A stretch of 11,129 bases of DNA, taken from IMG/VR virus record IMGVR_UViG_2617270947_000015. One strand, written 5' to 3'. The position numbers and the translations under genes were made by a program. Origin of the DNA: a virus. Its lineage: Duplodnaviria > Heunggongvirae > Uroviricota > Caudoviricetes. The notes below the pieces were generated by a model. The model had not been told where the DNA came from. It did no database searches and saw only the letters and a program-made list of their open reading frames with translations. Of the stretch, positions 1-11,129 are shown piece by piece. Each line of letters begins with the position of its first letter. Positions within the stretch are counted from its first letter, which is position 1.

Positions 1-327
1 TCACTTTTTCCAGAGGCGGTCGAACTCCGCCTTCGCAAAATAAGCGGAAGCCTGGCGAAGGATATCGTTACTGCGGCGCAGTTCACGATTTTCACGTTCC
101 AGCTCTTTCAGACGCTGACGTTCAGCGGTGGTGAGCCCTCCATCACCGCCCCCGGTATCCCGCTCATGCTGGCGAACCCAGACACGCAGAGTCTCCGGCG
201 TACAGCCAATCTTTGGAGCAATGGAACAAATTGTCGCCCATTGTGAGTCATATTCGCTCTGACTTTCCAGAACCATACGGACTGCCCGTTGACGGACTTC
301 GGGGGAAAAACGAGTATTTTTAGTCAT
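1..327 (-). CDS. IS3-family transposase OrfA (108 aa, HTH protein)
   Basis: Translation [21 protein letters not shown]...[32 protein letters not shown] has the typical IS3-family OrfA HTH plus leucine-zipper layout. It lies 54 bp inside the terminal inverted repeat. Confidence 0.85.
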
Positions 328-381
328 CCTGTTTACCTCTTTCTCAGGAAGTTTAGTCTCCAGGATTCCCGGGGCGGTTCA
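1..381 (-). mobile_element. Partial IS3-family insertion sequence (IS629/IS1203/IS3411-like); one terminus at 381, remainder off the left edge
   Basis: Read on the minus strand from 381 the sequence is TGAACCGCCCCGGGAATCCTGGAGACTAAACTTCC...AGGTAAACAGG-ATG, which matches my recollection of the IS629-type terminal inverted repeat followed directly by orfA. The orfA ORF is complete; orfB would lie beyond position 1. Confidence 0.8.
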
Positions 382-716
382 GGGGCTTCGTTCGTCCTGA
401 AAAACAGAATCTGCAAAATTTTGCCGAAATTATTCCGGTTATTTCCGGCCTTACTGGCGGGAGTGAAACCAATATTGTTAACGCCAGAGCGTTGCAGATG
501 TTTGATGATAAAAAGGGAGTAAATTTAACTTACACCCCTGACGGCAATCAGAATATGAGCATTATCTCTGAGTCAGGTTTCTACAAACTAATAAAAACAA
601 AAAGCGCCCCGTTGCCGGAGCGCCTTTGTGAACAATTAACCTACTGCGCAAAAAATGAATCTGAGCAGTGGGATTATATCAACCATGTGGAGAAGCGCCA
701 CAATTGCCGAATAACG

Positions 717-747
717 GGCAAAACAAAGGCCACCCGCTACGGTGGCC
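717..747 (-). terminator. Rho-independent terminator for the leftward small-gene operon
   Basis: Perfect 7-bp stem GGCCACC (728-734) / GGTGGCC (741-747) with a 6-nt loop. On the minus strand it is followed by TTTGTTTTG. It sits 80 bp downstream of the minus-strand ORF that ends at 827. Confidence 0.6.
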
Positions 748-826
748 CCTCGACACAAGCTACACGTTATCCCCAACGCATGAGCATTGCCAACAATGCC
801 ACATTTGCGGCTGGTGGGCAATGCAA

Positions 827-1000
827 TCAGTCTGGTTCAGTTCGTTGCCATACCTGCAATGAGCGCTTTTCCCTGTACTCTTTAAGGAATTGCTCAAGGG
901 CAAAAGCACATGGCGCGAATCTTTCTGATTCATGCTCTATCTTTCTGCGCCGTCTTTTCCGTGCCGGTGATAATGTTTTGGTCAATTCTTTATCGGTCAT
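827..1000 (-). CDS. Hypothetical small basic protein (57 aa from the second ATG)
   Basis: Lys/Arg/Glu-rich translation MTDKELTKTLSPARKRRRRKIEHESERF.... An AGGA lies about 9 nt upstream of the ATG at 1000; the ORF-track start at 1015 has no Shine-Dalgarno. It is second in the leftward operon and is followed by the terminator at 717-747. Confidence 0.5.
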   Translation of the reverse strand: MTDKELTKTLSPARKRRRRKIEHESERFAPCAFALEQFLKEYREKRSLQVWQRTEPD

Positions 1001-1057
1001 TGTGTTGTCCTGCATAGCAATGCGCCGTAGTTACTCACACCACGGCGCTGGTGATGG

Positions 1058-1237
1058 TTACTCCTGCTCTTTGGCCTTGCGGCGCTGGCGGCGTTTGATT
1101 TCGCCGCGCATGGCTGCGTTTATAAACTGTCCCGTGCTTTCGCCTTCTTCTTTCACGTTCTCCATGCCTTCAATAATTTCATGGGCAATACGTGCAGTTA
1201 CAGATTGTGATTTTGCATTCTTTGGACCCGTTGCCAT
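1058..1237 (-). CDS. Hypothetical small protein (59 aa); candidate regulator, first gene of the leftward operon
   Basis: The internal ATG at 1237 is preceded on the minus strand by GAGGGG at good spacing (GAGGGGTTAAAC-ATG). Translation is MATGPKNAKSQSVTARIAHEIIEGMENVKEEGESTGQFINAAMRGEIKRRQRRKAKEQE. It sits directly beside the operator-bearing divergent promoter region. The ORF-track start at 1276 is probably too long. Confidence 0.5.
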   Translation of the reverse strand: MATGPKNAKSQSVTARIAHEIIEGMENVKEEGESTGQFINAAMRGEIKRRQRRKAKEQE

Positions 1238-1257
1238 GTTTAACCCCTCATGTTTTT

Positions 1258-1339
1258 GGTGTAAGACAATATACACGAAAAAAAAATATTTTGAAGGGTT
1301 GACGTGTAAGACACCATTGTTTTACATTGTGTCTTACAC
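1258..1339. promoter_or_regulatory. Divergent promoter region with three copies of an 11-bp operator-like motif
   Basis: GGTGTAAGACA at 1258-1268, GTGTAAGACAC at 1304-1314 and its exact inverse GTGTCTTACAC at 1329-1339. Rightward candidate promoter: TTGACG (1299-1304) and TACATT (1323-1328), 18-bp spacer. Leftward candidate on the minus strand: TTCAAA and TATATT around 1270-1297. The motifs overlap the spacer or sit just downstream of the -10 of both promoters. Confidence 0.55.
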
Positions 1340-1436
1340 CTTATTGATGAAAGGCACAGAAACGACGAAACCCCGCACTGTAGGAGCAGTAACGGGGCTT
1401 CTAACCACCAACGATAGCAACAGTATCGAGGTAGCT

Positions 1437-1637
1437 ATGAGAAATCATACCACACACCCGAAAGGGCGGGACTCGCACAACCTGAATAAATACATCTGGC
1501 GTTTTATCGCCCTGAGCACGGCACAACCGCGCGTGATTACCATTGAGGCCACCAGCGAACAGGAAGCACGCCAGCAATCTCCGGCTGGCTGCGTGATGGT
1601 ATTTGCTGCCCGTATTCGTCAGGGGGTAGGCTTATGA
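1437..1637 (+). CDS. Hypothetical protein (66 aa), first gene of the rightward operon
   Basis: GAGGT Shine-Dalgarno 5 nt before the ATG at 1437. Translation MRNHTTHPKGRDSHNLNKYIWRFIALSTAQPRVITIEATSEQEARQQ.... Its stop overlaps the next start (ATGA). The long 492..1637 track ORF is in the same frame but its upstream part looks non-coding. Confidence 0.5.
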   Translation: MRNHTTHPKGRDSHNLNKYIWRFIALSTAQPRVITIEATSEQEARQQSPAGCVMVFAARIRQGVGL

Positions 1638-1864
1638 GCCAGGAAATCACACTACAACAGGCAGCAGAACGCGCCCACCAAATCGAAGTTATTTGCGCAC
1701 TGGCAGAGGATTACCCTAGCATGATGACCGACAGCGAATCAGGGGCAATCATCGGCTTACTTAAACGCCTTAGCGGTGAGGTCTGCGTATTCCTGAGCGA
1801 TGAACAGGAAAGAAGAACGCTTATTTCTAACGAAAAAAAATGCGGAGGGGTACATGTGCAATAA
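1634..1864 (+). CDS. Hypothetical protein (76 aa)
   Basis: AGGGGGTAGG Shine-Dalgarno upstream and ATGA overlap with the preceding gene, indicating translational coupling. Translation MSQEITLQQAAERAHQIEVICALAEDYPSMMTDSESGAIIGLLKRL.... Confidence 0.55.
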   Translation: MSQEITLQQAAERAHQIEVICALAEDYPSMMTDSESGAIIGLLKRLSGEVCVFLSDEQERRTLISNEKKCGGVHVQ

Positions 1865-2084
1865 AACCACACCGGACGCAGCAGAAGAAGCAATGCAAAT
1901 ACTGATACGTGCGCTCGTTGATGTTACCCACATGGTGGAGATTATGGAGAGAAAATCACAGTCGGAGCACGACAAAAGAAAACTTAAAACAATAAAAATA
2001 ATTGCCAAAAACTCGCTGATAAAAGTTACAGACATCCTTAATGAGGACATTAAAAGAATAAGGGAGAAAATTTGTGATGCATAA
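1854..2084 (+). CDS. Hypothetical protein (76 aa), AT-rich cargo gene A
   Basis: Internal ATG at 1854 preceded by GGAGGGG; the ORF-track start at 1800 would overlap the previous gene by 65 nt. Translation MCNKTTPDAAEEAMQILIRALVDVTHMVEIMERKSQSEHDKRKLKTIKIIAKN... is predicted helical. The local sequence is visibly more AT-rich than its flanks. Confidence 0.5.
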   Translation: MCNKTTPDAAEEAMQILIRALVDVTHMVEIMERKSQSEHDKRKLKTIKIIAKNSLIKVTDILNEDIKRIREKICDA

Positions 2085-2304
2085 AATCCCTTTTGAAGTA
2101 TTAATCCACTCTGAAAACGCATTAATTAAAGCACGCGAAATGAATGCGTTGTTAATTAAATTAATTGAAGTGCCGGAAGGTGGCGAAGATCATTCATCAT
2201 TAATGTTTGCCGCTGTTCAGACATTATTGACACCTGTTATTGATGAACTCAATAAGGCTATGGCAATTCACGAGAATAATAAAGCGCCCCACACCGGAGA
2301 ATAA
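2077..2304 (+). CDS. Hypothetical protein (75 aa), AT-rich cargo gene B
   Basis: ATG at 2077 overlaps the stop of the previous ORF (GTGATGCATAA) with AGGGAG upstream. Translation MHKIPFEVLIHSENALIKAREMNALLIKLIEVPEGGEDHSSLMFAAVQTLL.... AT-rich. Confidence 0.5.
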   Translation: MHKIPFEVLIHSENALIKAREMNALLIKLIEVPEGGEDHSSLMFAAVQTLLTPVIDELNKAMAIHENNKAPHTGE

Positions 2305-2309
2305 AAATA

Positions 2310-2609
2310 ATGAAACTTAAATATTCTGGCTTAACTGCCAGTGGCAAAACTCGCACTAAATTCATGCGCGGTGATATTTACCGCGACCAGTACGGCGGCA
2401 CGGTAATGATTAAGGGCGTGGAGGAACGGCGCGTAACCTACCGTCGTGAAGGCTACGAATATGATTGCGTGATGCCTGTTTATCAGTTCGATCGTGATTT
2501 TTCTCTGGTGCAGGCCGTACCGCGTAACGTGCCCACCAGCAGGGAGAAAGCACGCGCCAATATTCAGGAAATAAAAAAGATGCTTAACGTATTCAGGGGT
2601 AAGAAATGA
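2310..2609 (+). CDS. Hypothetical protein (99 aa) immediately upstream of and coupled to the primase gene
   Basis: GGAGA Shine-Dalgarno upstream; its stop overlaps the primase start at 2606. Translation MKLKYSGLTASGKTRTKFMRGDIYRDQYGGTVMIKGVEERRVTYRREGYEYD.... Confidence 0.6.
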   Translation: MKLKYSGLTASGKTRTKFMRGDIYRDQYGGTVMIKGVEERRVTYRREGYEYDCVMPVYQFDRDFSLVQAVPRNVPTSREKARANIQEIKKMLNVFRGKK

Positions 2610-4360
2610 AACTGGCACCGAACGTAAAAAAACAACCACGCGGAATAAAACACAAAGACACAGAGGTAATTATTTTCGCGGGTAGTGATGCGTGGTCACA
2701 TGCAAAACAGTGGCAGGAGCAGGACGGCCCCGCATCCGGCGATAATGTGCCGCCTGTGTGGCTTGGGCCAAATCAGCTTGCCGAACTTGATGCGCTGAAA
2801 ATTGTTCCGGATGGGAAAAAGCGCGTAAGGCTGTACCAGGCCGGAGAACTGGATTTAGTGGAGACCAAAAAGATTGGTCAGAAGCTGGCGGCGGCAGATA
2901 TTCAGGACGCAAATTTTTACCCTGATGGTATGCACGGTCAGAAGGTGGAGAACTGGCGCGAATATCTGGCCCGTGAGCGCCAGAATCTTTCTGATGGTCT
3001 GGTCATTGAGCTTCCGGTAAAGCAAAAGGCGCAACTTTCGCAGATGGCGGACAGTGAGCGCGCGCAGCTGCTTGCCGATCGCTTTGATGGCGTTTGCGTA
3101 CATCCTGAAAGTGAAATCGTTCACGTATGGCGCGGCGGGGTATGGTGTCCGGTCAGCACAATGGAACTTAGCCGCGAAATGGTGGCGATCTATTCAGAGC
3201 ACAGGGCCACTTTCAGCAAGCGCGTAATCAATAACGCCGTGGAAGCGTTAAAAGTTATTGCCGAACCAATGGGCGAGCCGTCCGGCGATTTGCTGCCGTT
3301 CGCCAATGGTGCGCTTGACCTGAAAACGGGGGAATTTTCCCCGCACACGCCGGAGAACTGGATCACCACGCACAACGGCATTGAGTACACGCCACCAGCA
3401 CCAGGGGAGAACATCCGCGATAACGCGCCAAACTTTCATAAATGGCTTAAGCACGCAGCCGGAAAAGACCCGCGCAAGATGATGCGTATATGTGCCGCGC
3501 TGTACATGATTATGGCGAACCGGTACGACTGGCAGATGTTTATTGAGGCCACCGGAGACGGCGGGAGCGGTAAAAGTACATTCACGCACATAGCCAGCCT
3601 TCTGGCAGGGAAACAGAACACGGTAAGCGCTGAAATGACATCGCTTGATGATGCTGGTGGACGTGCGCAGGTTGTCGGGAGTCGTCTTATCGTCCTAGCT
3701 GACCAGCCGAAATATACAGGCGAAGGAACGGGCATCAAGAAAATCACGGGCGGTGACCCCGTGGAAATTAACCCGAAATACGAAAAGCGTTTCACGGCTG
3801 TAATCAGGGCGGTGGTGCTGGCGACCAACAATAACCCGATGATATTCACCGAACGGGCCGAAGGTGTGGCACGTCGTCGCGTGATTTTCCGTTTCGACAA
3901 TATCGTCAGTGAGGCCGAAAAAGACAGGGAGCTACCGGAAAAGATCGCGGCTGAAATCCCTGTCATTATCCGCCGATTGCTGGCGAACTTTACCGACCCT
4001 GAGAAGGCACGGGCTTTACTACTGGAACAGCGTGACGGTGATGAAGCACTGGCAATAAAGCAACAGACGGATCCGGTTATTGAGTTTTGCCAGTTCCTGA
4101 ATTTTCTGGAGGAAGCGCGCGGCCTGATGATGGGGGGCGGTGGCGATTCAGTGAAGTACACGACCAGGAACAGCCTTTACCGCGTCTATCTGGCGTTTAT
4201 GGCATACGCAGGCAGGAGCAAACCGCTAAACGTAAATGACTTTGGAAAGGCTATGAAGCCTGCCGCAAAAGTTTACGGACATGAATATATTACGCGGAAA
4301 GTTAAGGGGGTAACGCAGACTAACGCAATAACAACAGACGAGTGCGACGCGTTTTTATAA
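2606..4360 (+). CDS. Satellite/phage replication protein: P4/D5-family primase-helicase-like NTPase (584 aa)
   Basis: Walker A GDGGSGKST and Walker B-like RLIVLAD motifs in the C-terminal half, with the overall D5_N / P4-family primase C-terminal (SF3 helicase-like) layout. It is followed immediately by an iteron array. The N-terminal ~300 aa are of unclear domain identity. Confidence 0.85.
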   Translation: MKLAPNVKKQPRGIKHKDTEVIIFAGSDAWSHAKQWQEQDGPASGDNVPPVWLGPNQLAELDALKIVPDGKKRVRLYQAGELDLVETKKIGQKLAAADIQDANFYPDGMHGQKVENWREYLARERQNLSDGLVIELPVKQKAQLSQMADSERAQLLADRFDGVCVHPESEIVHVWRGGVWCPVSTMELSREMVAIYSEHRATFSKRVINNAVEALKVIAEPMGEPSGDLLPFANGALDLKTGEFSPHTPENWITTHNGIEYTPPAPGENIRDNAPNFHKWLKHAAGKDPRKMMRICAALYMIMANRYDWQMFIEATGDGGSGKSTFTHIASLLAGKQNTVSAEMTSLDDAGGRAQVVGSRLIVLADQPKYTGEGTGIKKITGGDPVEINPKYEKRFTAVIRAVVLATNNNPMIFTERAEGVARRRVIFRFDNIVSEAEKDRELPEKIAAEIPVIIRRLLANFTDPEKARALLLEQRDGDEALAIKQQTDPVIEFCQFLNFLEEARGLMMGGGGDSVKYTTRNSLYRVYLAFMAYAGRSKPLNVNDFGKAMKPAAKVYGHEYITRKVKGVTQTNAITTDECDAFL

Positions 4361-4373
4361 TTTTTTGTAATTG

Positions 4374-4600
4374 CTGTCTACCCTGTCTACCTGAGTAAAG
4401 AAAAATACATTTAATTCAGTGCATTAAGTTAGGTAGACAGCCTTTTTTTACTGTCTACCCACTATCTACCCTCTCTACCTGATTTTACCTGAATCAGACA
4501 GGGAGGTAGACACGGGGTAGATAGTGGATAAAAGCACTCTACCCCGCTGAAAGCCGCGCCATTACTGGCATGAGGGCCACTAAGGTAGATAAGGTAGACA
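4374..4600. repeat. Iteron array, putative replication origin
   Basis: At least 11 copies of an 8-mer TGTCTACC / GGTAGACA (variants TATCTACC, GGTAGATA, CTCTACC) in both orientations, e.g. 4376-4383, 4384-4391, 4432-4439, 4452-4459, 4463-4470, 4505-4512, 4517-4524, 4584-4591, 4593-4600. Non-coding and directly downstream of the primase-helicase gene. Confidence 0.8.
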
Positions 4601-4648
4601 AGGGGAGGCACAACTCAAAACTTTTTAAACGAGGGGGTAAAAATAAAT

Positions 4649-4927: not shown

Positions 4928-5346
4928 CAGCACAGATAGCAGCTTACGGGCGGCTGGTGGACGACCCGCAGGTAAAACAGACCAGCAAGGGCACACCGAT
5001 GACGCTGGCGCGTATGGCGGTCCCCCTTCCGTGCAGCCAGGCAGATGACGGAACGGCGACGATGTGGTTATCCGTCCTGGCATTTGGCAGACAGGCCGAA
5101 GCACTGGAAAGGCACCGCAAGGGTGAACTCCTGAGCGTGGCGGGTAACATGCAGATCAGCCAGTGGACTGGGCAGAACGGAGAAACGCGGCAGGGCTGGC
5201 AGGTTATCGCAGACAGTGTAATCAGTGCGCGAACGGCGCGACTGGGCGGCAAAAAAGGTCAACAGGGCCAGGCTACTGACGCGCTGAACAGGGCAAAACA
5301 ACAGGCGGGGAATGATGATCCGTACGGGGATAACATACCGTTTTAA
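4924..5346 (+). CDS. ssb: Single-stranded DNA-binding protein (SSB-like, 140 aa)
   Basis: GGAGAGG Shine-Dalgarno. OB-fold-like core (LSVLAFGRQAEALERHRKGELLSVAGNMQISQWTGQNGETRQGWQVIADSV) followed by a Gly/Gln-rich linker and an acidic C-terminal tip DDPYGDNIPF, resembling the SSB DDDIPF tail. Confidence 0.8.
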   Translation: MTAQIAAYGRLVDDPQVKQTSKGTPMTLARMAVPLPCSQADDGTATMWLSVLAFGRQAEALERHRKGELLSVAGNMQISQWTGQNGETRQGWQVIADSVISARTARLGGKKGQQGQATDALNRAKQQAGNDDPYGDNIPF

Positions 5347-5362
5347 GCGACGAGAGACAGAA

Positions 5363-5384
5363 GCCGGAGCAATCCGGCTTTTTT
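5363..5384 (+). terminator. Rho-independent terminator after the replication operon
   Basis: Stem GCCGGA (5363-5368) / TCCGGC (5373-5378), loop GCAA, then TTTTTT (5379-5384). Nearly identical to the hairpin at 7804-7826. Confidence 0.7.
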
Positions 5385-5450
5385 ACGGGTCCTCCTGGCG
5401 GGGTGGGCCTGAACACGGGGCGGGAAGCGCGGAAAAAAGCGCATTTTTGT
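5385..5450 (+). other. Degenerate cos-like sequence (direct, diverged copy of the cos site at 7827-7900)
   Basis: ACGGGTCCT...ACGGGGCGGGAAGCGCGG...GCATTTTTG aligns with ACGGGTCCTTTCCGG...ACGGGGCGGCGACCTCGCGGGTTTTCGCTATTTATG of copy A, but with many substitutions inside the cosN-equivalent. Confidence 0.5.
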
Positions 5451-5565
5451 GATTTTATCGTCATCATCATCATGAGCGTAATTTATTGTTTTTAATTGTT
5501 TTGATGCAAAAAAGATGATGGTTGTGGTTAATTTTCGTTCGACATCTTTGCAGGCAGATAAAAAA

Positions 5566-5602
5566 GCCCGATAAGGTCAGAGGTGGCTTATCGGGCTTTT
5601 GC
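5566..5602. terminator. Strong hairpin flanked by A/T runs on both sides (potentially bidirectional terminator)
   Basis: Perfect 10-bp stem GCCCGATAAG (5567-5576) / CTTATCGGGC (5588-5597), preceded by AAAAAA and followed by TTTTG. It lies in a ~400-bp stretch with no convincing ORF. Confidence 0.6.
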
Positions 5603-5677
5603 ATATGAGGCTTTTTGGTGCACTGACACACATGAGCGGGATCATCATTTCATAATTTGCAACACAACTCAATATCA

Positions 5678-5726
5678 TTGCACAAAACGCAATCCTGATT
5701 ATAATCAGAGCTGGATGAACATCCAG
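5678..5726 (+). promoter_or_regulatory. Candidate promoter of the capsid operon with an operator palindrome at the predicted start
   Basis: TTGCAC (5678-5683), 16-bp spacer, perfect TATAAT (5700-5705). A perfect 7-2-7 palindrome CTGGATGAACATCCAG (5711-5726) follows immediately downstream of the -10. Confidence 0.5.
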
Positions 5727-5761
5727 TTATGATTTTTTAAGTCGAAGAGGAATTTCTTACT

Positions 5762-5968
5762 ATGGCTGAAGAGAAAAAAGGCGGTGTTTCGGTGTACATA
5801 AGCCCCGAAATCGTGGAGGTGCTCAAGCAGCGCCACAAAAAAAACTATGAGGCTGGCGTGGCGGCTGGACTGGATCCGCTGATGACGCCGGAGCCGTCGA
5901 TAGGTTCACTTGTACGCTCTTATTTACTTGCGGCGCTTGGGATGCATAAAAATTATGGGGGTGAATAA
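5762..5968 (+). CDS. Hypothetical small protein (68 aa), translationally coupled to the major capsid gene
   Basis: GAGGAA Shine-Dalgarno; its stop TAA overlaps the capsid gene ATG at 5968 (TAATGG). Translation MAEEKKGGVSVYISPEIVEVLKQRHKKNYEAGVAAGLDPLMTPEPSIGSLVRSYLLAALGMHKNYGGE. Confidence 0.55.
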   Translation: MAEEKKGGVSVYISPEIVEVLKQRHKKNYEAGVAAGLDPLMTPEPSIGSLVRSYLLAALGMHKNYGGE

Positions 5969-8693: not shown

Positions 8694-8975
8694 ATGACAG
8701 AAGCCGAAATACTGCGATTAATCCGCCGCGTTGCCGGAATCAGCCAGCAGCATGACGAACAGGCCACGCAGCCGGACAGCGTGACCGCTGAAAATTATGT
8801 GCGTGTTGTTGCTGAGGTGATGCGCCGTGATGGTATCCAGCTTAATGATGTTGATATGCGCGACATACGGATCCGCGTTCTGGAAATGCTGGCCTACAAT
8901 CGCCGCGTTGAACTGTATCGGGAGAAAGAAAAAATAACGTACCACTGGAAGAAGCCGGAGCGGTTGCGGCGGTAA
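8694..8975 (+). CDS. Hypothetical protein (93 aa)
   Basis: GGGGG Shine-Dalgarno 5 nt upstream of the ATG. Translation MTEAEILRLIRRVAGISQQHDEQATQPDSVTAENYVRVVAEVMRRDGIQLNDVDMRDIRIRVLEMLAYNRR.... Confidence 0.55.
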   Translation: MTEAEILRLIRRVAGISQQHDEQATQPDSVTAENYVRVVAEVMRRDGIQLNDVDMRDIRIRVLEMLAYNRRVELYREKEKITYHWKKPERLRR

Positions 8976-9587
8976 CTGGTTGATATTTTCGAAATTCGCC
9001 AGCGGCGAACATCGGGGAAACCAGCCTAACCCGTTGATATTTTCGGAAACCTCAATTTGAGGAAGTCGGCGCGGTAACTCGCTGAACTTAAAGCAAAGCG
9101 CAAAATTGCGCTTGCTGAATAATCATTATGATTACGCAGATGATTAAGGAATGACCGAAGGCGGAAATTCGCCTGTGGTTAATGGGGGAGTTGCAGATCT
9201 GCAACTCGACCATGAAACTACGGAAACTACCCGTAGTTTGGGTAGTAAGAGTAACACCCAGATTTTGGGGCTTACTCGTGATACCCAAATTTGGGGTATC
9301 GGTGGCAACCATAACGACTTTCGTTACGGTTGATGCTTTTACCCCATTGGGGGAAAGGTATTACGATAATCATAACACCTACCGAACAGGTAAAGCCCAC
9401 CAGCCTGATTAACGTTTAACCGGAAAAAAATTCCGGTAGGTGGGGATCCCCATATAGACATTAACGCCCCTCATGAATTGGTGCGCTTCCCCCTGGAAAG
9501 ATGATCCGCCTGTATATTTCTTGTGTCTATTTGTTCCACGTTGTTTCATACGGTGCACCGAACGGTGTAGTTAATGGTGTAGTCAAT
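8966..9587. repeat. Repeat- and palindrome-dense non-coding region between the last island ORF and phoQ (candidate att arm / regulatory region)
   Basis: Direct repeats GTTGATATTTTCG(A/G)AA at 8979-8994 and 9033-9049; GCGGTAACT at 8968-8976 and 9071-9079. Palindromes AAGCGCAA-aa-TTGCGCTT (9096-9113), GTTGCAGATCTGCAAC (9190-9205), AAACTAC-cc-GTAGTTT (9224-9239), CCGGAA-aaaaa-TTCCGG (~9420-9437), CGGTGCACCG (9551-9560). Tandem GGTGTAGTTAAT / GGTGTAGTCAAT (9564-9587). Confidence 0.5.
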
Positions 9588-9668: not shown

Positions 9669-11129
9669 TTATTCATCTTTCGGCGCAGAATGCTGGCGAC
9701 CAAAAATCACCTCCATCCGCGCACCGCCCAGCATGCTCTCTCCGGCGACGATTTTACCCTCATATTGCTCGGTGATTTCGCGGGCTACCGCCAGCCCTAC
9801 ACCTTGCCCAGGGCGTAAAGTATCAACCCGTTGACCACGGTCGAAAATGACCTCTCGCTTGCTTAATGGAATACCGGGGCCATCATCCTCGACCACAATA
9901 TAGAGATGCTCGTCGGTTTGCCTTGCAGAAATTTCGACAAACTCGAGGCAATATTTACAGGCATTATCCAGCACGTTGCCCATCACCTCGACAAAATCGT
10001 TCTGCTCACCGACAAAGCTGATCTCTGGCGAAATATCGAGAGAGATATTGACCCCTTTGCGTTGATACACTTTGTTCAGCGCTGAGGTGAGATTGTCCAG
10101 CAGTGGGGCGACCGGATGCAGCTCGCGGCTGAGCAATGTCCCGCCGCGCATACTGGCACGATGCAGGTAGTAGCCAATTTGCTGTGAAATGCGGCTGATT
10201 TGCTCCAGCATTACCGGCTCAGCATCACTGACGCTCATCTTTTCACTACGCAGAGAACGCAGCGTACTTTGCAGCACCGCCAGTGGCGTTTTCAGACTAT
10301 GGGTCAGGTCGGTGAGCGTCGTACGGTATTTGTCGTAACGTTCGCGTTCACTTTTTAACAATCGGTTCAGGTTTCGTACCAGACTGGTCAGTTCTCGCGT
10401 TGTGGCTGGATTGAGCAATTCGCGGTTATGTTCTTCCAGTTCGCGGACTTCTTTTGCCAGGGCTTCGATGGGGCGTAAACTCCACCAGGCGGCGACCCAC
10501 AGCAGCGGGATCACTAACAGCAGATTGGCTGAGAGCACATAGATAAACCAGCTCCAGACCATATAGGAACTTTTTAGCTCCACCGGAATGGTATCCACCA
10601 CCACAATGGTTAATTTTGGCATCCGCGATGTTGCCGGGTAGACGTTTACTGCCACCGAGTGGGTCATCTCCGCGTCGTCATCATCTTCCCGCACTTCCTG
10701 CAACTGTTGCTGTATCGAATGATCTCCACTCAGCAAGAGGCTGGTATCGTTAACATCCGCTTCAATTTCATGAAAACCATTCGATTTCAGCCAGTCAGGC
10801 TGGATCATCTTCATCAGCCAGGGCACGTCACGTTGCGCCCATAAAAGCTGCCCGTTCTCATCATAAATTAGCGTCATGGTGGGGCTTTGCTTGTCGATAT
10901 TTTCGGGTAACTCGACATGCAACTTATTGTTTTCCCACTTCGCAAGGGTATAGAACAGATTGCTCTCGCCACGTAACAGCCGAAACGTAGTTTTATCGAA
11001 ACTGACGCTATAACCGATCAGCGCGACCATTCCGTAGGCAAGCGAAAGCACCAGTACTACCGCTGCCGTTGCCAACAGAAAACGTACCCGCAGCGAGAGC
11101 GGGAAAAAAAGACGCAGTAATTTTTTCAT
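9669..11129 (-). CDS. phoQ: Sensor histidine kinase PhoQ of the PhoP/PhoQ two-component system, complete, 486 aa
   Basis: Translation [83 protein letters not shown]...HSAPKDE matches E. coli PhoQ: two transmembrane segments, periplasmic sensor domain, HAMP, DHp histidine box ([12 protein letters not shown]) and HATPase domain. The start codon is the last three bases of the window. Confidence 0.97.

What the first reader, a model, noticed from the sequence alone, without database searches (positions are those of the whole stretch)
1854..2304. AT-rich two-gene cassette embedded in the replication operon (possible accessory or anti-phage cargo)
Two overlapping ~75-aa ORFs sit in a segment whose base composition is visibly more AT-rich than the neighbouring genes, suggesting separate acquisition. 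Satellites often carry small interference or defence genes at such positions. Both proteins are predicted helical and I recognise no family. Exact GC content was not computed.
Basis: inference. Interest (0 to 1): 0.55.

Follow-up and report, generated by a model that had tools for sequence, protein, structure and literature searches.

The report
Swappable small-gene pair in PICI operon
The AT-rich segment is real, but it is one rare allelic version of two small helical-hairpin genes that nearly all E. coli phage satellites of this type carry just upstream of their replication genes; their function is untested and nothing marks them as anti-phage cargo.

Summary
ORF A (1854-2084, 76 aa) and ORF B (2077-2304, 75 aa) overlap, have good ribosome-binding sites, are predicted helical hairpins, and lie in the lowest-GC stretch of the window (0.377 vs 0.492).

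The window is an EcCICFT073-type phage-inducible chromosomal island (PICI) next to phoQ. A and B are not foreign cargo. Each is a divergent allele of a gene family with a fixed place in the helper-induced early operon: Icd-like – [optional] – A-type – [0-2 inserts] – B-type – rgdR/DUF4222 – primase. A B-type gene precedes DUF4222 in 91 of 93 sampled islands, and an A-type gene is in 64 of 80 complete arrays.

Against EcCICFT073, only 1883-2278 is replaced, and the conserved gene ends flank it. The window's pair (a2-b2) occurs in 43 of 5426 complete E. coli genomes. A never occurs without B, but B occurs alone.

Both genes are under purifying selection. Neither matches any Pfam, NCBIfam, PADLOC, phage-genome or solved-structure entry.

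My best reading is that they are small protein-binding modulators of the satellite's induced cycle, exchanged as one block. The target is unknown. The defence-cargo idea is not supported, but it is not excluded. Interest is moderate.

The parts
1854..2084 (+). ORF A, 76 aa, basic (pI 8.6), two-helix hairpin; subtype a2 of the A superfamily
   Evidence: ORF and ribosome-binding site. RefSeq call WP_000336144 in L001. AF2 pLDDT 85.6, helices 7-34 and 38-75. phrog_5146 E 4.5e-8. 288 related clusters, all Escherichia or Shigella. dN/dS 0.35-0.44.
2077..2304 (+). ORF B, 75 aa, acidic (pI 5.4), two-helix hairpin with a disordered conserved C-terminal tail; subtype b2 of the B superfamily
   Evidence: ORF and ribosome-binding site. 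AF2 pLDDT 82.3, helices 6-31 and 39-69. phrog_2196 E 3.6e-10. Only 14 clusters in 1.84 billion representative proteins. dN/dS 0.17-0.29. Invariant motifs HSEN..L and TLL.PVI.EL.
1883..2278 (.). The AT-rich DNA block that is actually exchanged between islands (no DNA homology to EcCICFT073); it starts at codon 10 of A and ends 26 nt before the stop of B
   Evidence: blastn breakpoints against L005, L002 and L006. The lowest-GC 451-bp window starts at 1883.
1634..1864 (+). Optional upstream gene (76 aa, phrog_1478), present in 21 of 80 complete arrays; absent from most islands that carry the A-B pair
1437..1637 (+). Icd-like (Ash-type) gene that opens the small-gene array; the start coordinate is approximate
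   Evidence: RefSeq annotation of the homologous gene in L002, L003 and L005. The translation sits inside the mechanical ORF 492-1637.
2310..2609 (+). rgdR-like gene (DUF4222). It is a conserved anchor immediately downstream, and its Shine-Dalgarno sequence lies in the last codons of B
   Evidence: Pfam PF13973 E 5e-24. RgdR = DUF4222, c1493 in CFT073 (PMC10877973). Sequence read.
2606..4360 (+). P4-type primase/replicase (D5_N, DUF5906, Pox_D5), start overlapping the rgdR stop (ATGA)
   Evidence: phrog_864 E 1e-173
4371..4605 (.). Replication-origin iterons (CTGTCTACC in direct and inverted copies) 3' of pri
   Evidence: organisation as described for E. coli PICIs (PMC6092414)

Best explanation
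ORF A and ORF B are two unrelated small helical-hairpin proteins of the early, helper-induced operon of an EcCICFT073-type PICI.

**Shown**
- They are allelic versions (subtypes a2 and b2) of two gene families with fixed positions in the array Icd-like – A-type – (0-2 optional genes) – B-type – rgdR – replicase.
- The B family is essentially core. The A family is common but dispensable.
- The window's versions form a 396-bp AT-rich block (1883-2278). The conserved 5' end of A and the conserved 3' end of B bound this block, and the latter holds the rgdR ribosome-binding site.
- The whole block is exchanged between islands. A-subtype and B-subtype therefore stay paired while the replicase next door is shuffled.

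**Inferred**
- The genes have no promoter of their own, overlap their neighbours, and so should be made only when AlpA turns the island on.
- They are too small for catalysis and consist of an exposed amphipathic hairpin. They most likely act by binding other proteins, as homo-oligomers or an A-B hetero-oligomer in a four-helix bundle.
- In that role they would tune a host or helper-phage function during satellite replication.
- Discrete, deeply divergent types under purifying selection suggest that each type is matched to a different partner variant.
- The target is unknown.
For: **Island identity and operon position:**. AlpA activates downstream PICI genes and is itself induced by the helper phage (PMC6092414).

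**Translational coupling, no internal signals:** no promoter or terminator excess; overlaps read.

**Positional alleles:**
- A vs the EcCICFT073-type A is 32-40% identical (E 1e-10 to 1e-14).
- B vs b1 is 36-40% identical (E 1e-8 to 1e-11).
- The flanking genes are 81-100% identical.

**Census of 93 islands:**
- Gene order is conserved, with 1-5 genes in the slot.
- A B-type gene lies directly upstream of DUF4222 in 86 loci, plus 5 with the X3 subtype, which hits the same PHROG.
- An A-type gene is present in 64 of 80 complete arrays.
- In a Yersinia-type PICI a B-like gene again sits between the Ash/Icd-like gene and the primase.

**Subtype linkage:** a2-b2 17/17, a1/a3-b1 50/52, and 43/43 in complete genomes. 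Each pair occurs with replicase types R1, R2 and R3.

**Other:**
- Breakpoints at 1882/1883 and 2278/2279.
- Hairpin models.
- Purifying selection.
- Satellite-specific: no tblastn hit in 50,697 phage records.
Against: - There is no direct evidence for any binding partner, for A-B interaction, or for expression.
- The subtype linkage may be purely mechanical. With no homology inside the block, homologous recombination can only move it whole.
- The sampled islands are not phylogenetically independent.
- b1-type partners of a1 are both acidic, so the basic-A/acidic-B complementarity seen here is not general.
- RgdR works alone from a plasmid (PMC10877973), so B is not required for that activity.
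- Helical hairpins are generic, and the fold searches gave nothing specific (best E 0.16, 0.82 and 0.28).
- In this window an IS element separates the operon from alpA, so these copies may not be expressed normally.
Confidence: 0.5

Rival explanations
1. Interference or anti-phage accessory genes. One or both small proteins block helper or unrelated phages, much as SaPI Ppi/Pti proteins or the PICI Rpp bind phage proteins. The allelic types would reflect an arms race with phage targets.
For: - Patchy distribution and discrete divergent alleles.
- Satellite-specific families.
- Small allelic satellite proteins that bind helper proteins are an established mechanism (PMC6092414 and PMC6739421).
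- The genes upstream of pri were never screened for interference.
Against: - No PADLOC hit.
- The slot is not one of the described PICI defence hotspots (PMC11364771).
- B-type genes are near-universal rather than accessory.
- The genes lack their own promoter, so they would not be expressed in the uninduced island, unlike constitutive defence cargo (inference).
Confidence: 0.18
2. Counter-defence or host-takeover proteins. These would be small early proteins that neutralise a host factor, such as a defence system, a nuclease or the cell-division machinery, so the satellite and helper can replicate. This resembles the small variable early genes of phages and the neighbouring Icd-like gene.
For: - Position among early genes next to an Icd-like (cell-division-inhibitor-like) gene.
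- Small helical proteins of high diversity.
Against: - No similarity to any known anti-defence or division-inhibitor family in Pfam, PHROG annotations or the PDB.
- This is largely a special case of the best explanation with a host target, and the present data cannot separate the two.
Confidence: 0.15
3. Toxin-antitoxin or abortive-infection pair. Basic A would be a toxin that is never found without acidic B, its antitoxin, which can persist alone.
For: - A is always followed by B (43/43 genomes, 17/17 loci), while B occurs without A in about 150 genomes.
- The ORFs are small and overlapping, with pI 8.6 and 5.4.
Against: - Neither protein has a known toxin fold or a DNA-binding antitoxin domain.
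- No promoter of their own.
- Other A subtypes are acidic and are separated from B by one or two inserted genes.
- A is under ordinary purifying selection, and the pair sits mid-operon.
Confidence: 0.07
4. The AT-rich DNA itself is the functional feature, for example an H-NS nucleation site that helps silence the island. The ORFs would then be incidental.
For: - GC of 0.36-0.38 over about 400 bp, with TTAATTAA palindromes.
- All B subtypes keep a low GC despite large synonymous divergence.
Against: - dN/dS is well below 1, and the sense frame is the best-conserved frame.
- ORF lengths, start sites and motifs are conserved across subtypes and genera.
- A-type alleles with normal GC (0.48-0.50) occupy the same place.
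Confidence: 0.05

Closest known systems
EcCICFT073 small ORFs between the Icd-like gene and rgdR (WP_001372127, WP_001204077, WP_001204962; the genes just upstream of c1493)
   Same: - Same island family, same operon and same positions.
- The A-type N-terminus MCNKTTPDAA and the B-type C-terminus ..APHTGE are shared.
- Same size and predicted helical nature.
- Also uncharacterised.
   Different: - Only 32-40% protein identity, with no DNA homology across 1883-2278.
- EcCICFT073 has an extra 73-aa gene between them.
- Its A-type allele has normal GC (0.52) and is acidic.
Small allelic satellite proteins that bind helper-phage proteins (SaPI Ppi/PtiA/PtiM; PICI Rpp)
   Same: Short satellite-encoded proteins without enzymatic domains, occurring as allelic variants and acting by protein-protein binding. 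This is a functional analogy only (PMC6092414 and PMC6739421).
   Different: - Those genes lie downstream of the ori in the packaging/interference module.
- No sequence or specific fold similarity was found here.
Epsilon, the small anti-repressor gene upstream of the alpha primase in satellite P4 (from my own knowledge; not tested here)
   Same: A small protein gene in the satellite's early operon, just upstream of a P4-type primase, that acts on the helper by binding one of its proteins.
   Different: - PICIs of this type are induced through AlpA rather than by derepressing the helper.
- P4 and PICIs share only distant homology in AlpA, Pri-Rep and Int (PMC6092414).
- I ran no sequence comparison.
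Immunity-region style allelic blocks of lambdoid phages (from my own knowledge)
   Same: A non-homologous central block bounded by conserved sequence, so that homologous recombination exchanges it as a unit. Discrete types sit at a fixed genome position.
   Different: Those blocks encode repressor/operator specificity. Here there is no DNA-binding domain, and co-resident islands can carry the same B subtype (up to 4 places in one genome).
Type II toxin-antitoxin pairs
   Same: Two small overlapping genes. One (A) is never found without the other (B).
   Different: There is no toxin or antitoxin fold, no autoregulated promoter, and other subtypes are interrupted by inserted genes.

Membership tests
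EcCICFT073-type PICI (the island as a whole) | Integration at the specific roxA/phoQ att site and overall DNA similarity to EcCICFT073 | tested here: met
   94% identity over 85% of the window to CFT073, with phoQ at the right end.
EcCICFT073-type PICI (the island as a whole) | int and alpA at the left end | tested here: inconclusive
   The window starts inside an IS3-family element that ends at 381. Island homology begins at 382, 84 bp past the alpA stop in CFT073. Whether int and alpA lie beyond the IS cannot be seen.
EcCICFT073-type PICI (the island as a whole) | pri-rep followed by an iteron origin; rgdR; capsid-like and decoration-like genes | tested here: met
   D5_N/DUF5906/Pox_D5 primase and DUF4222. 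Iterons at 4371-4605. Homologous genes are annotated as major capsid and head decoration proteins in L001 and L005, as described in PMC6092414.
phrog_5146 (ORF A) and phrog_2196 (ORF B), both of unknown function | Significant full-length match to the family profile | tested here: met
   A: E 4.5e-8, residues 1-70 on profile 1-72 of 74. B: E 3.6e-10, residues 1-69 on profile 1-71 of 74.
Known anti-phage defence systems | Match to a defence-protein model | tested here: not met
   No PADLOC hit at E<=1 for A, B or either neighbour. No Pfam or NCBIfam hit.
Known anti-phage defence systems | Location in a recognised satellite defence hotspot | tested here: not met
   The described PICI hotspots are the 5' end, the 3' end and downstream of pri (PMC11364771). 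This slot is upstream of rgdR-pri.
Known anti-phage defence systems | Protection against phage infection | not testable with these tools
   This needs expression and a phage challenge.
Type II toxin-antitoxin module | Two adjacent small genes with obligate co-occurrence of toxin with antitoxin | tested here: met
   A is always followed by B (43/43 and 17/17). B also occurs alone.
Type II toxin-antitoxin module | Antitoxin with a DNA-binding domain, toxin with a recognised toxin fold, and its own autoregulated promoter | tested here: not met
   Both are plain two-helix hairpins with no Pfam domain. No specific fold match. No promoter-like site upstream of A.
Type II toxin-antitoxin module | Toxicity of one partner neutralised by the other | not testable with these tools
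   This needs expression experiments.
Paralogous tandem duplicates (A and B as one family) | Detectable profile-profile similarity | tested here: not met
   hhalign probability 0.3%, E 0.18 over 12 columns.

The most novel reading that the evidence does not exclude
The A-B block is a specificity cassette of the satellite. The two hairpins would form a co-adapted hetero-oligomer whose type (a2-b2 versus a1/a3-b1 and others) decides which helper-phage or host protein variant the island can exploit or block. Swapping the block would then retarget the satellite. That would add a previously unrecognised module to the best-studied Gram-negative PICI.
Probability: 0.15. Interest if true: 0.7.

Novelty: new member of a known kind. 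Interest (0 to 1): 0.38.

Why it matters
EcCICFT073-type PICIs are the reference Gram-negative phage satellites, and related islands are present in about a fifth of complete E. coli genomes (1097 of 5426). Their packaging and interference genes have been dissected. The array of small genes between alpA and the primase has not.

This analysis shows that the array has a fixed grammar. It contains a nearly universal B-type gene and a common A-type gene. Both exist as a few deeply divergent types that move as one block. That pattern is typical of genes that interact with variable partners, so the array is a sensible place to look for helper-specificity or host-manipulation functions.

It also cautions against reading low GC plus small ORFs in a satellite as defence cargo. 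Here the low GC is a long-standing family property of the B-type genes.

Tried and rejected
- **Family scans.** Pfam, NCBIfam and PADLOC scans of A, B and their neighbours gave nothing for A or B. PHROG hits are to families of unknown function.
- **Structure-based searches.** Foldseek of both AF2 models against the PDB, and of B against BFVD, gave only generic hairpins such as encapsulated ferritins, CdsO, Tsi2 and designed bundles. All had E > 0.1, and I rejected them as uninformative. Profile searches against PDB sequences gave nothing below E 0.02, only coiled segments.
- **A and B as paralogues.** Rejected.
- **Phage origin.** No tblastn hit for either protein in 50,697 phage records.
- **Deep HMMER search with the B profile.** It found only 14 clusters and no link to a named family.
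- **Other slot genes.** The other gene families in the slot (X1-X5, orf1634) were scanned to find a functional theme. All are of unknown function.
- **Antisense ORF 1757-2122.** I considered it as an alternative gene. It stays open in a diverged allele, but its frame has a higher dN/dS (0.54 vs 0.35), and A avoids the codons that would create antisense stops. I rejected it as probably incidental.
- **10-nt direct repeat flanking the block.** About 0.6 such repeats are expected by chance, and the two copies are in different frames. I did not treat it as a recombination site.
- **Incompatibility determinant.** This is unlikely, because up to four places in one genome match the B query.
- **Literature.** I found no functional test of these genes.

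Full report
**1. What the window is**

The window carries an IS3-family transposase fragment at its left end (1-327, minus strand). The IS ends at 381. The rest is a phage-inducible chromosomal island (PICI) that ends next to phoQ (9669-11129, minus strand).

From 382 onward the window is 94% identical, over 85% of its length, to EcCICFT073, the reference E. coli PICI, which sits at the same roxA/phoQ site. The plus-strand gene order is:
- Icd-like gene
- a 76-aa gene (1634-1864)
- ORF A (1854-2084)
- ORF B (2077-2304)
- an rgdR-like DUF4222 gene (2310-2609)
- a P4-type primase (2606-4360)
- origin iterons (4371-4605)
- an SSB gene
- capsid-like and decoration-like genes

[quoted passage not shown] It also reports that RgdR is encoded by all analysed E. 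coli PICIs (PMC6092414; PMC10877973).

**2. The observation**

- The two ORFs have convincing ribosome-binding sites and match the RefSeq gene calls in a 99.5%-identical locus.
- They overlap each other and their neighbours by a few bases.
- The region's GC is 0.377 against 0.492 for the window, and the single lowest 451-bp window starts at 1883.
- GC3 is 0.41 for A and 0.33 for B. For A, roughly half of the deficit comes from a K/I/N/E-rich composition. For B, most of it is codon choice.
- AlphaFold2, run with family alignments, predicts both as two-helix antiparallel hairpins, with pLDDT 85.6 and 82.3.
- Within-subtype dN/dS is 0.35-0.44 for A and 0.17-0.29 for B. The annotated frame of A has the lowest ratio of all six frames. 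Both are therefore real protein-coding genes.

**3. These are alleles of resident genes, not an inserted cassette**

In sister islands the gene after the 76-aa gene starts with the same MCNKTTPDAA and is 32-40% identical to A. The gene just before DUF4222 ends with the same ..APHTGE and is 36-40% identical to B. The flanking genes are 81-100% identical.

A profile built from A and these alleles retrieves 288 protein clusters, all from Escherichia or Shigella. A profile of B finds only 14 clusters among 1.84 billion representative proteins. One of those is from Yersinia enterocolitica, where the gene again lies between the Ash/Icd-like gene and a P4-type primase. The A and B families are unrelated to each other. 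Neither occurs in 50,697 phage genomes.

**4. Census of the slot**

I anchored on the conserved DUF4222 gene, collected 80 IMG/VR loci, 2 species-representative loci and the annotated E. coli loci, and classified the upstream ORFs with HMMs.

| Feature | Result |
|---|---|
| Gene order | Icd-like – [76-aa gene or other] – A-type – [0-2 inserts] – B-type – DUF4222 |
| Genes between the Icd-like gene and DUF4222 | 1 to 5 |
| B-type gene directly before DUF4222 | 86 of 93 loci, plus 5 with the 87-aa X3 gene, which hits the same PHROG as B |
| A-type gene present | 64 of 80 complete arrays |

All gene families in the slot are of unknown function.

**5. Subtypes and linkage**

Clustering at 70% identity gives these subtypes:

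| Subtype | Loci | GC |
|---|---|---|
| a1 | 42 | 0.50 |
| a2 (window) | 17 | 0.378 |
| a3 | 10 | 0.48 |
| b1 | 56 | 0.40 |
| b2 (window) | 29 | 0.39 |
| b3 | 1 | 0.40 |

- Low GC is a property of every B subtype, and it persists although synonymous divergence among b2 alleles reaches 0.9. It is therefore not a sign of recent import. Only A's low GC is allele-specific.
- a2 pairs with b2 in 17 of 17 loci. a1 and a3 pair with b1 in 50 of 52. b2 occurs without any A-type gene in 11.
- Among 5426 complete E. coli genomes, A occurs in 43, always followed by B. B-type DNA (subtype b2) occurs in 195.
- The same A-B pairs occur with three different replicase types that begin only 300 bp downstream, and with different integrases. 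The block is therefore reassorted against the rest of the island but not internally.

**6. Breakpoints**

Against EcCICFT073, DNA homology runs to 1882 (98.8%) and resumes at 2279 (86%). The exchanged block is 1883-2278, from codon 10 of A to 26 nt before the stop of B, and it coincides with the GC minimum.

The conserved 3' end of B contains the Shine-Dalgarno sequence of the rgdR-like gene. That explains why this short stretch is conserved in about 1100 genomes.

In islands that lack the 76-aa gene or lack A, the junctions fall at gene boundaries (1627/1628, 1858/1859, 2073/2074). The absence of internal homology between block types is, by itself, enough to keep A and B types linked. The linkage is compatible with co-adaptation but does not prove it.

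**7. Function**

No sequence or fold search gives a lead. What can be said comes from anatomy and evolution.
- The genes have no promoter of their own above background.
- They are translationally coupled within the AlpA-dependent operon.
- They are too small for catalysis.
- Each is an amphipathic hairpin of the kind that normally oligomerises or docks on a partner.
- They exist as a few discrete, deeply divergent types, each under purifying selection.

I therefore favour small protein-binding modulators of the induced satellite cycle, acting on a helper or host protein and possibly as an A-B complex. I put that at about 0.5. The target is unknown.

The defence-cargo reading is weaker:
- There is no PADLOC hit.
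- The slot is not one of the described PICI hotspots, which are the 5' end, the 3' end and downstream of pri (PMC11364771).
- The B family is nearly universal rather than accessory.
- Expression is expected only after induction.

It is not excluded, because only genes downstream of the ori were screened for interference in EcCICFT073 (PMC6739421).

A toxin-antitoxin reading fits the asymmetry (A never without B) and the charges (pI 8.6 and 5.4). It fails on fold, on DNA-binding domain and on promoter, and other A subtypes are acidic and separated from B by inserted genes. A purely cis-acting role for the AT-rich DNA is contradicted by the coding constraints.

**8. Novelty and verdict**

The island type is known, and the two proteins are already in public databases as hypothetical proteins and in PHROGs of unknown function. 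What is new is descriptive:
- the fixed grammar of the small-gene array
- the near-core status of the B family
- the discrete linked A/B types
- the exact boundaries of the exchangeable block

I rate this as a new member of a known kind, of moderate interest. The most novel reading still open is that the block is a specificity cassette that retargets the satellite. I give that about 0.15.

**9. Caveats**
- The sampled loci are not phylogenetically independent, so the Fisher test on subtype pairing (p = 4e-15) overstates the evidence.
- ORF chains in the census were built by simple rules.
- In this particular window an IS element lies between alpA and the operon, so the local copies may be mis-regulated.

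Noticed in passing
window 1-381: An IS3-family element (orfA at 1-327, minus strand) ends at 381. Homology to EcCICFT073-type islands starts at 382, which is 84 bp past the alpA stop in CFT073. In this strain the early operon is therefore cut off from alpA and int, or these are lost, and the island may be immobile or mis-regulated.
   Followed up: partly
window 4371-4605: There are direct and inverted copies of CTGTCTACC(C/T) immediately 3' of the primase gene. They match the iteron-type replication origin described for E. coli PICIs.
   Followed up: partly
window 1757-2122 (minus strand): A 121-aa antisense ORF covers ORF A and stays open (115 aa) in alleles only 81% identical. Its frame has dN/dS 0.54 against 0.35 for the sense frame, and A lacks TTA and CTA codons. 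It is probably a by-product of codon usage.
   Followed up: yes
window 1867-1876 and 2289-2298: An exact 10-nt direct repeat, CCACACCGGA, lies in both conserved borders of the exchanged block. The second copy includes the ribosome-binding site of the rgdR-like gene. The copies are in different reading frames, and about 0.6 such repeats are expected by chance.
   Followed up: partly
window 5346-5762: There is no PerC-family regulator gene between the SSB gene and the 68-aa gene, whereas EcCICFT073 has one there (L005 7663-7911).
   Followed up: no
window 8969-9298: Between the last island gene and phoQ there are 22-nt direct repeats (8973 and 9027) and a 33-nt imperfect inverted repeat (9228-9298). 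They could relate to the cos site or attR.
   Followed up: no
window 492-1637: The 381-aa mechanical ORF is an artefact. It runs across Icd-like remnants and the antisense YlcI/YnfO-family gene (1058-1276, minus strand; phrog_949). Related islands annotate Icd-like pseudogenes here.
   Followed up: partly
window 2116-2169: Inside ORF B there is a 12-nt inverted repeat (2116-2127 / 2139-2150) and two palindromes that contain TTAATTAA (2119-2132 and 2156-2169). One of these was flagged as terminator-like. I did not check conservation in other b2 alleles.
   Followed up: no
L093 4645-7653: A Yersinia-type PICI has the order Ash/Icd-like – B-like (84 aa) – 89 aa – 125 aa – P4-type primase, with an AntA-domain gene after alpA. 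The B family and its position therefore extend beyond Escherichia.
   Followed up: partly
L005-L010 and the census loci: A 73-93-aa family (X1, starting MRDDRFNSLKQEF...) is the usual insert between A-type and B-type genes (39 loci). A 121-127-aa family (X2) is the second most common insert. Both are of unknown function.
   Followed up: partly
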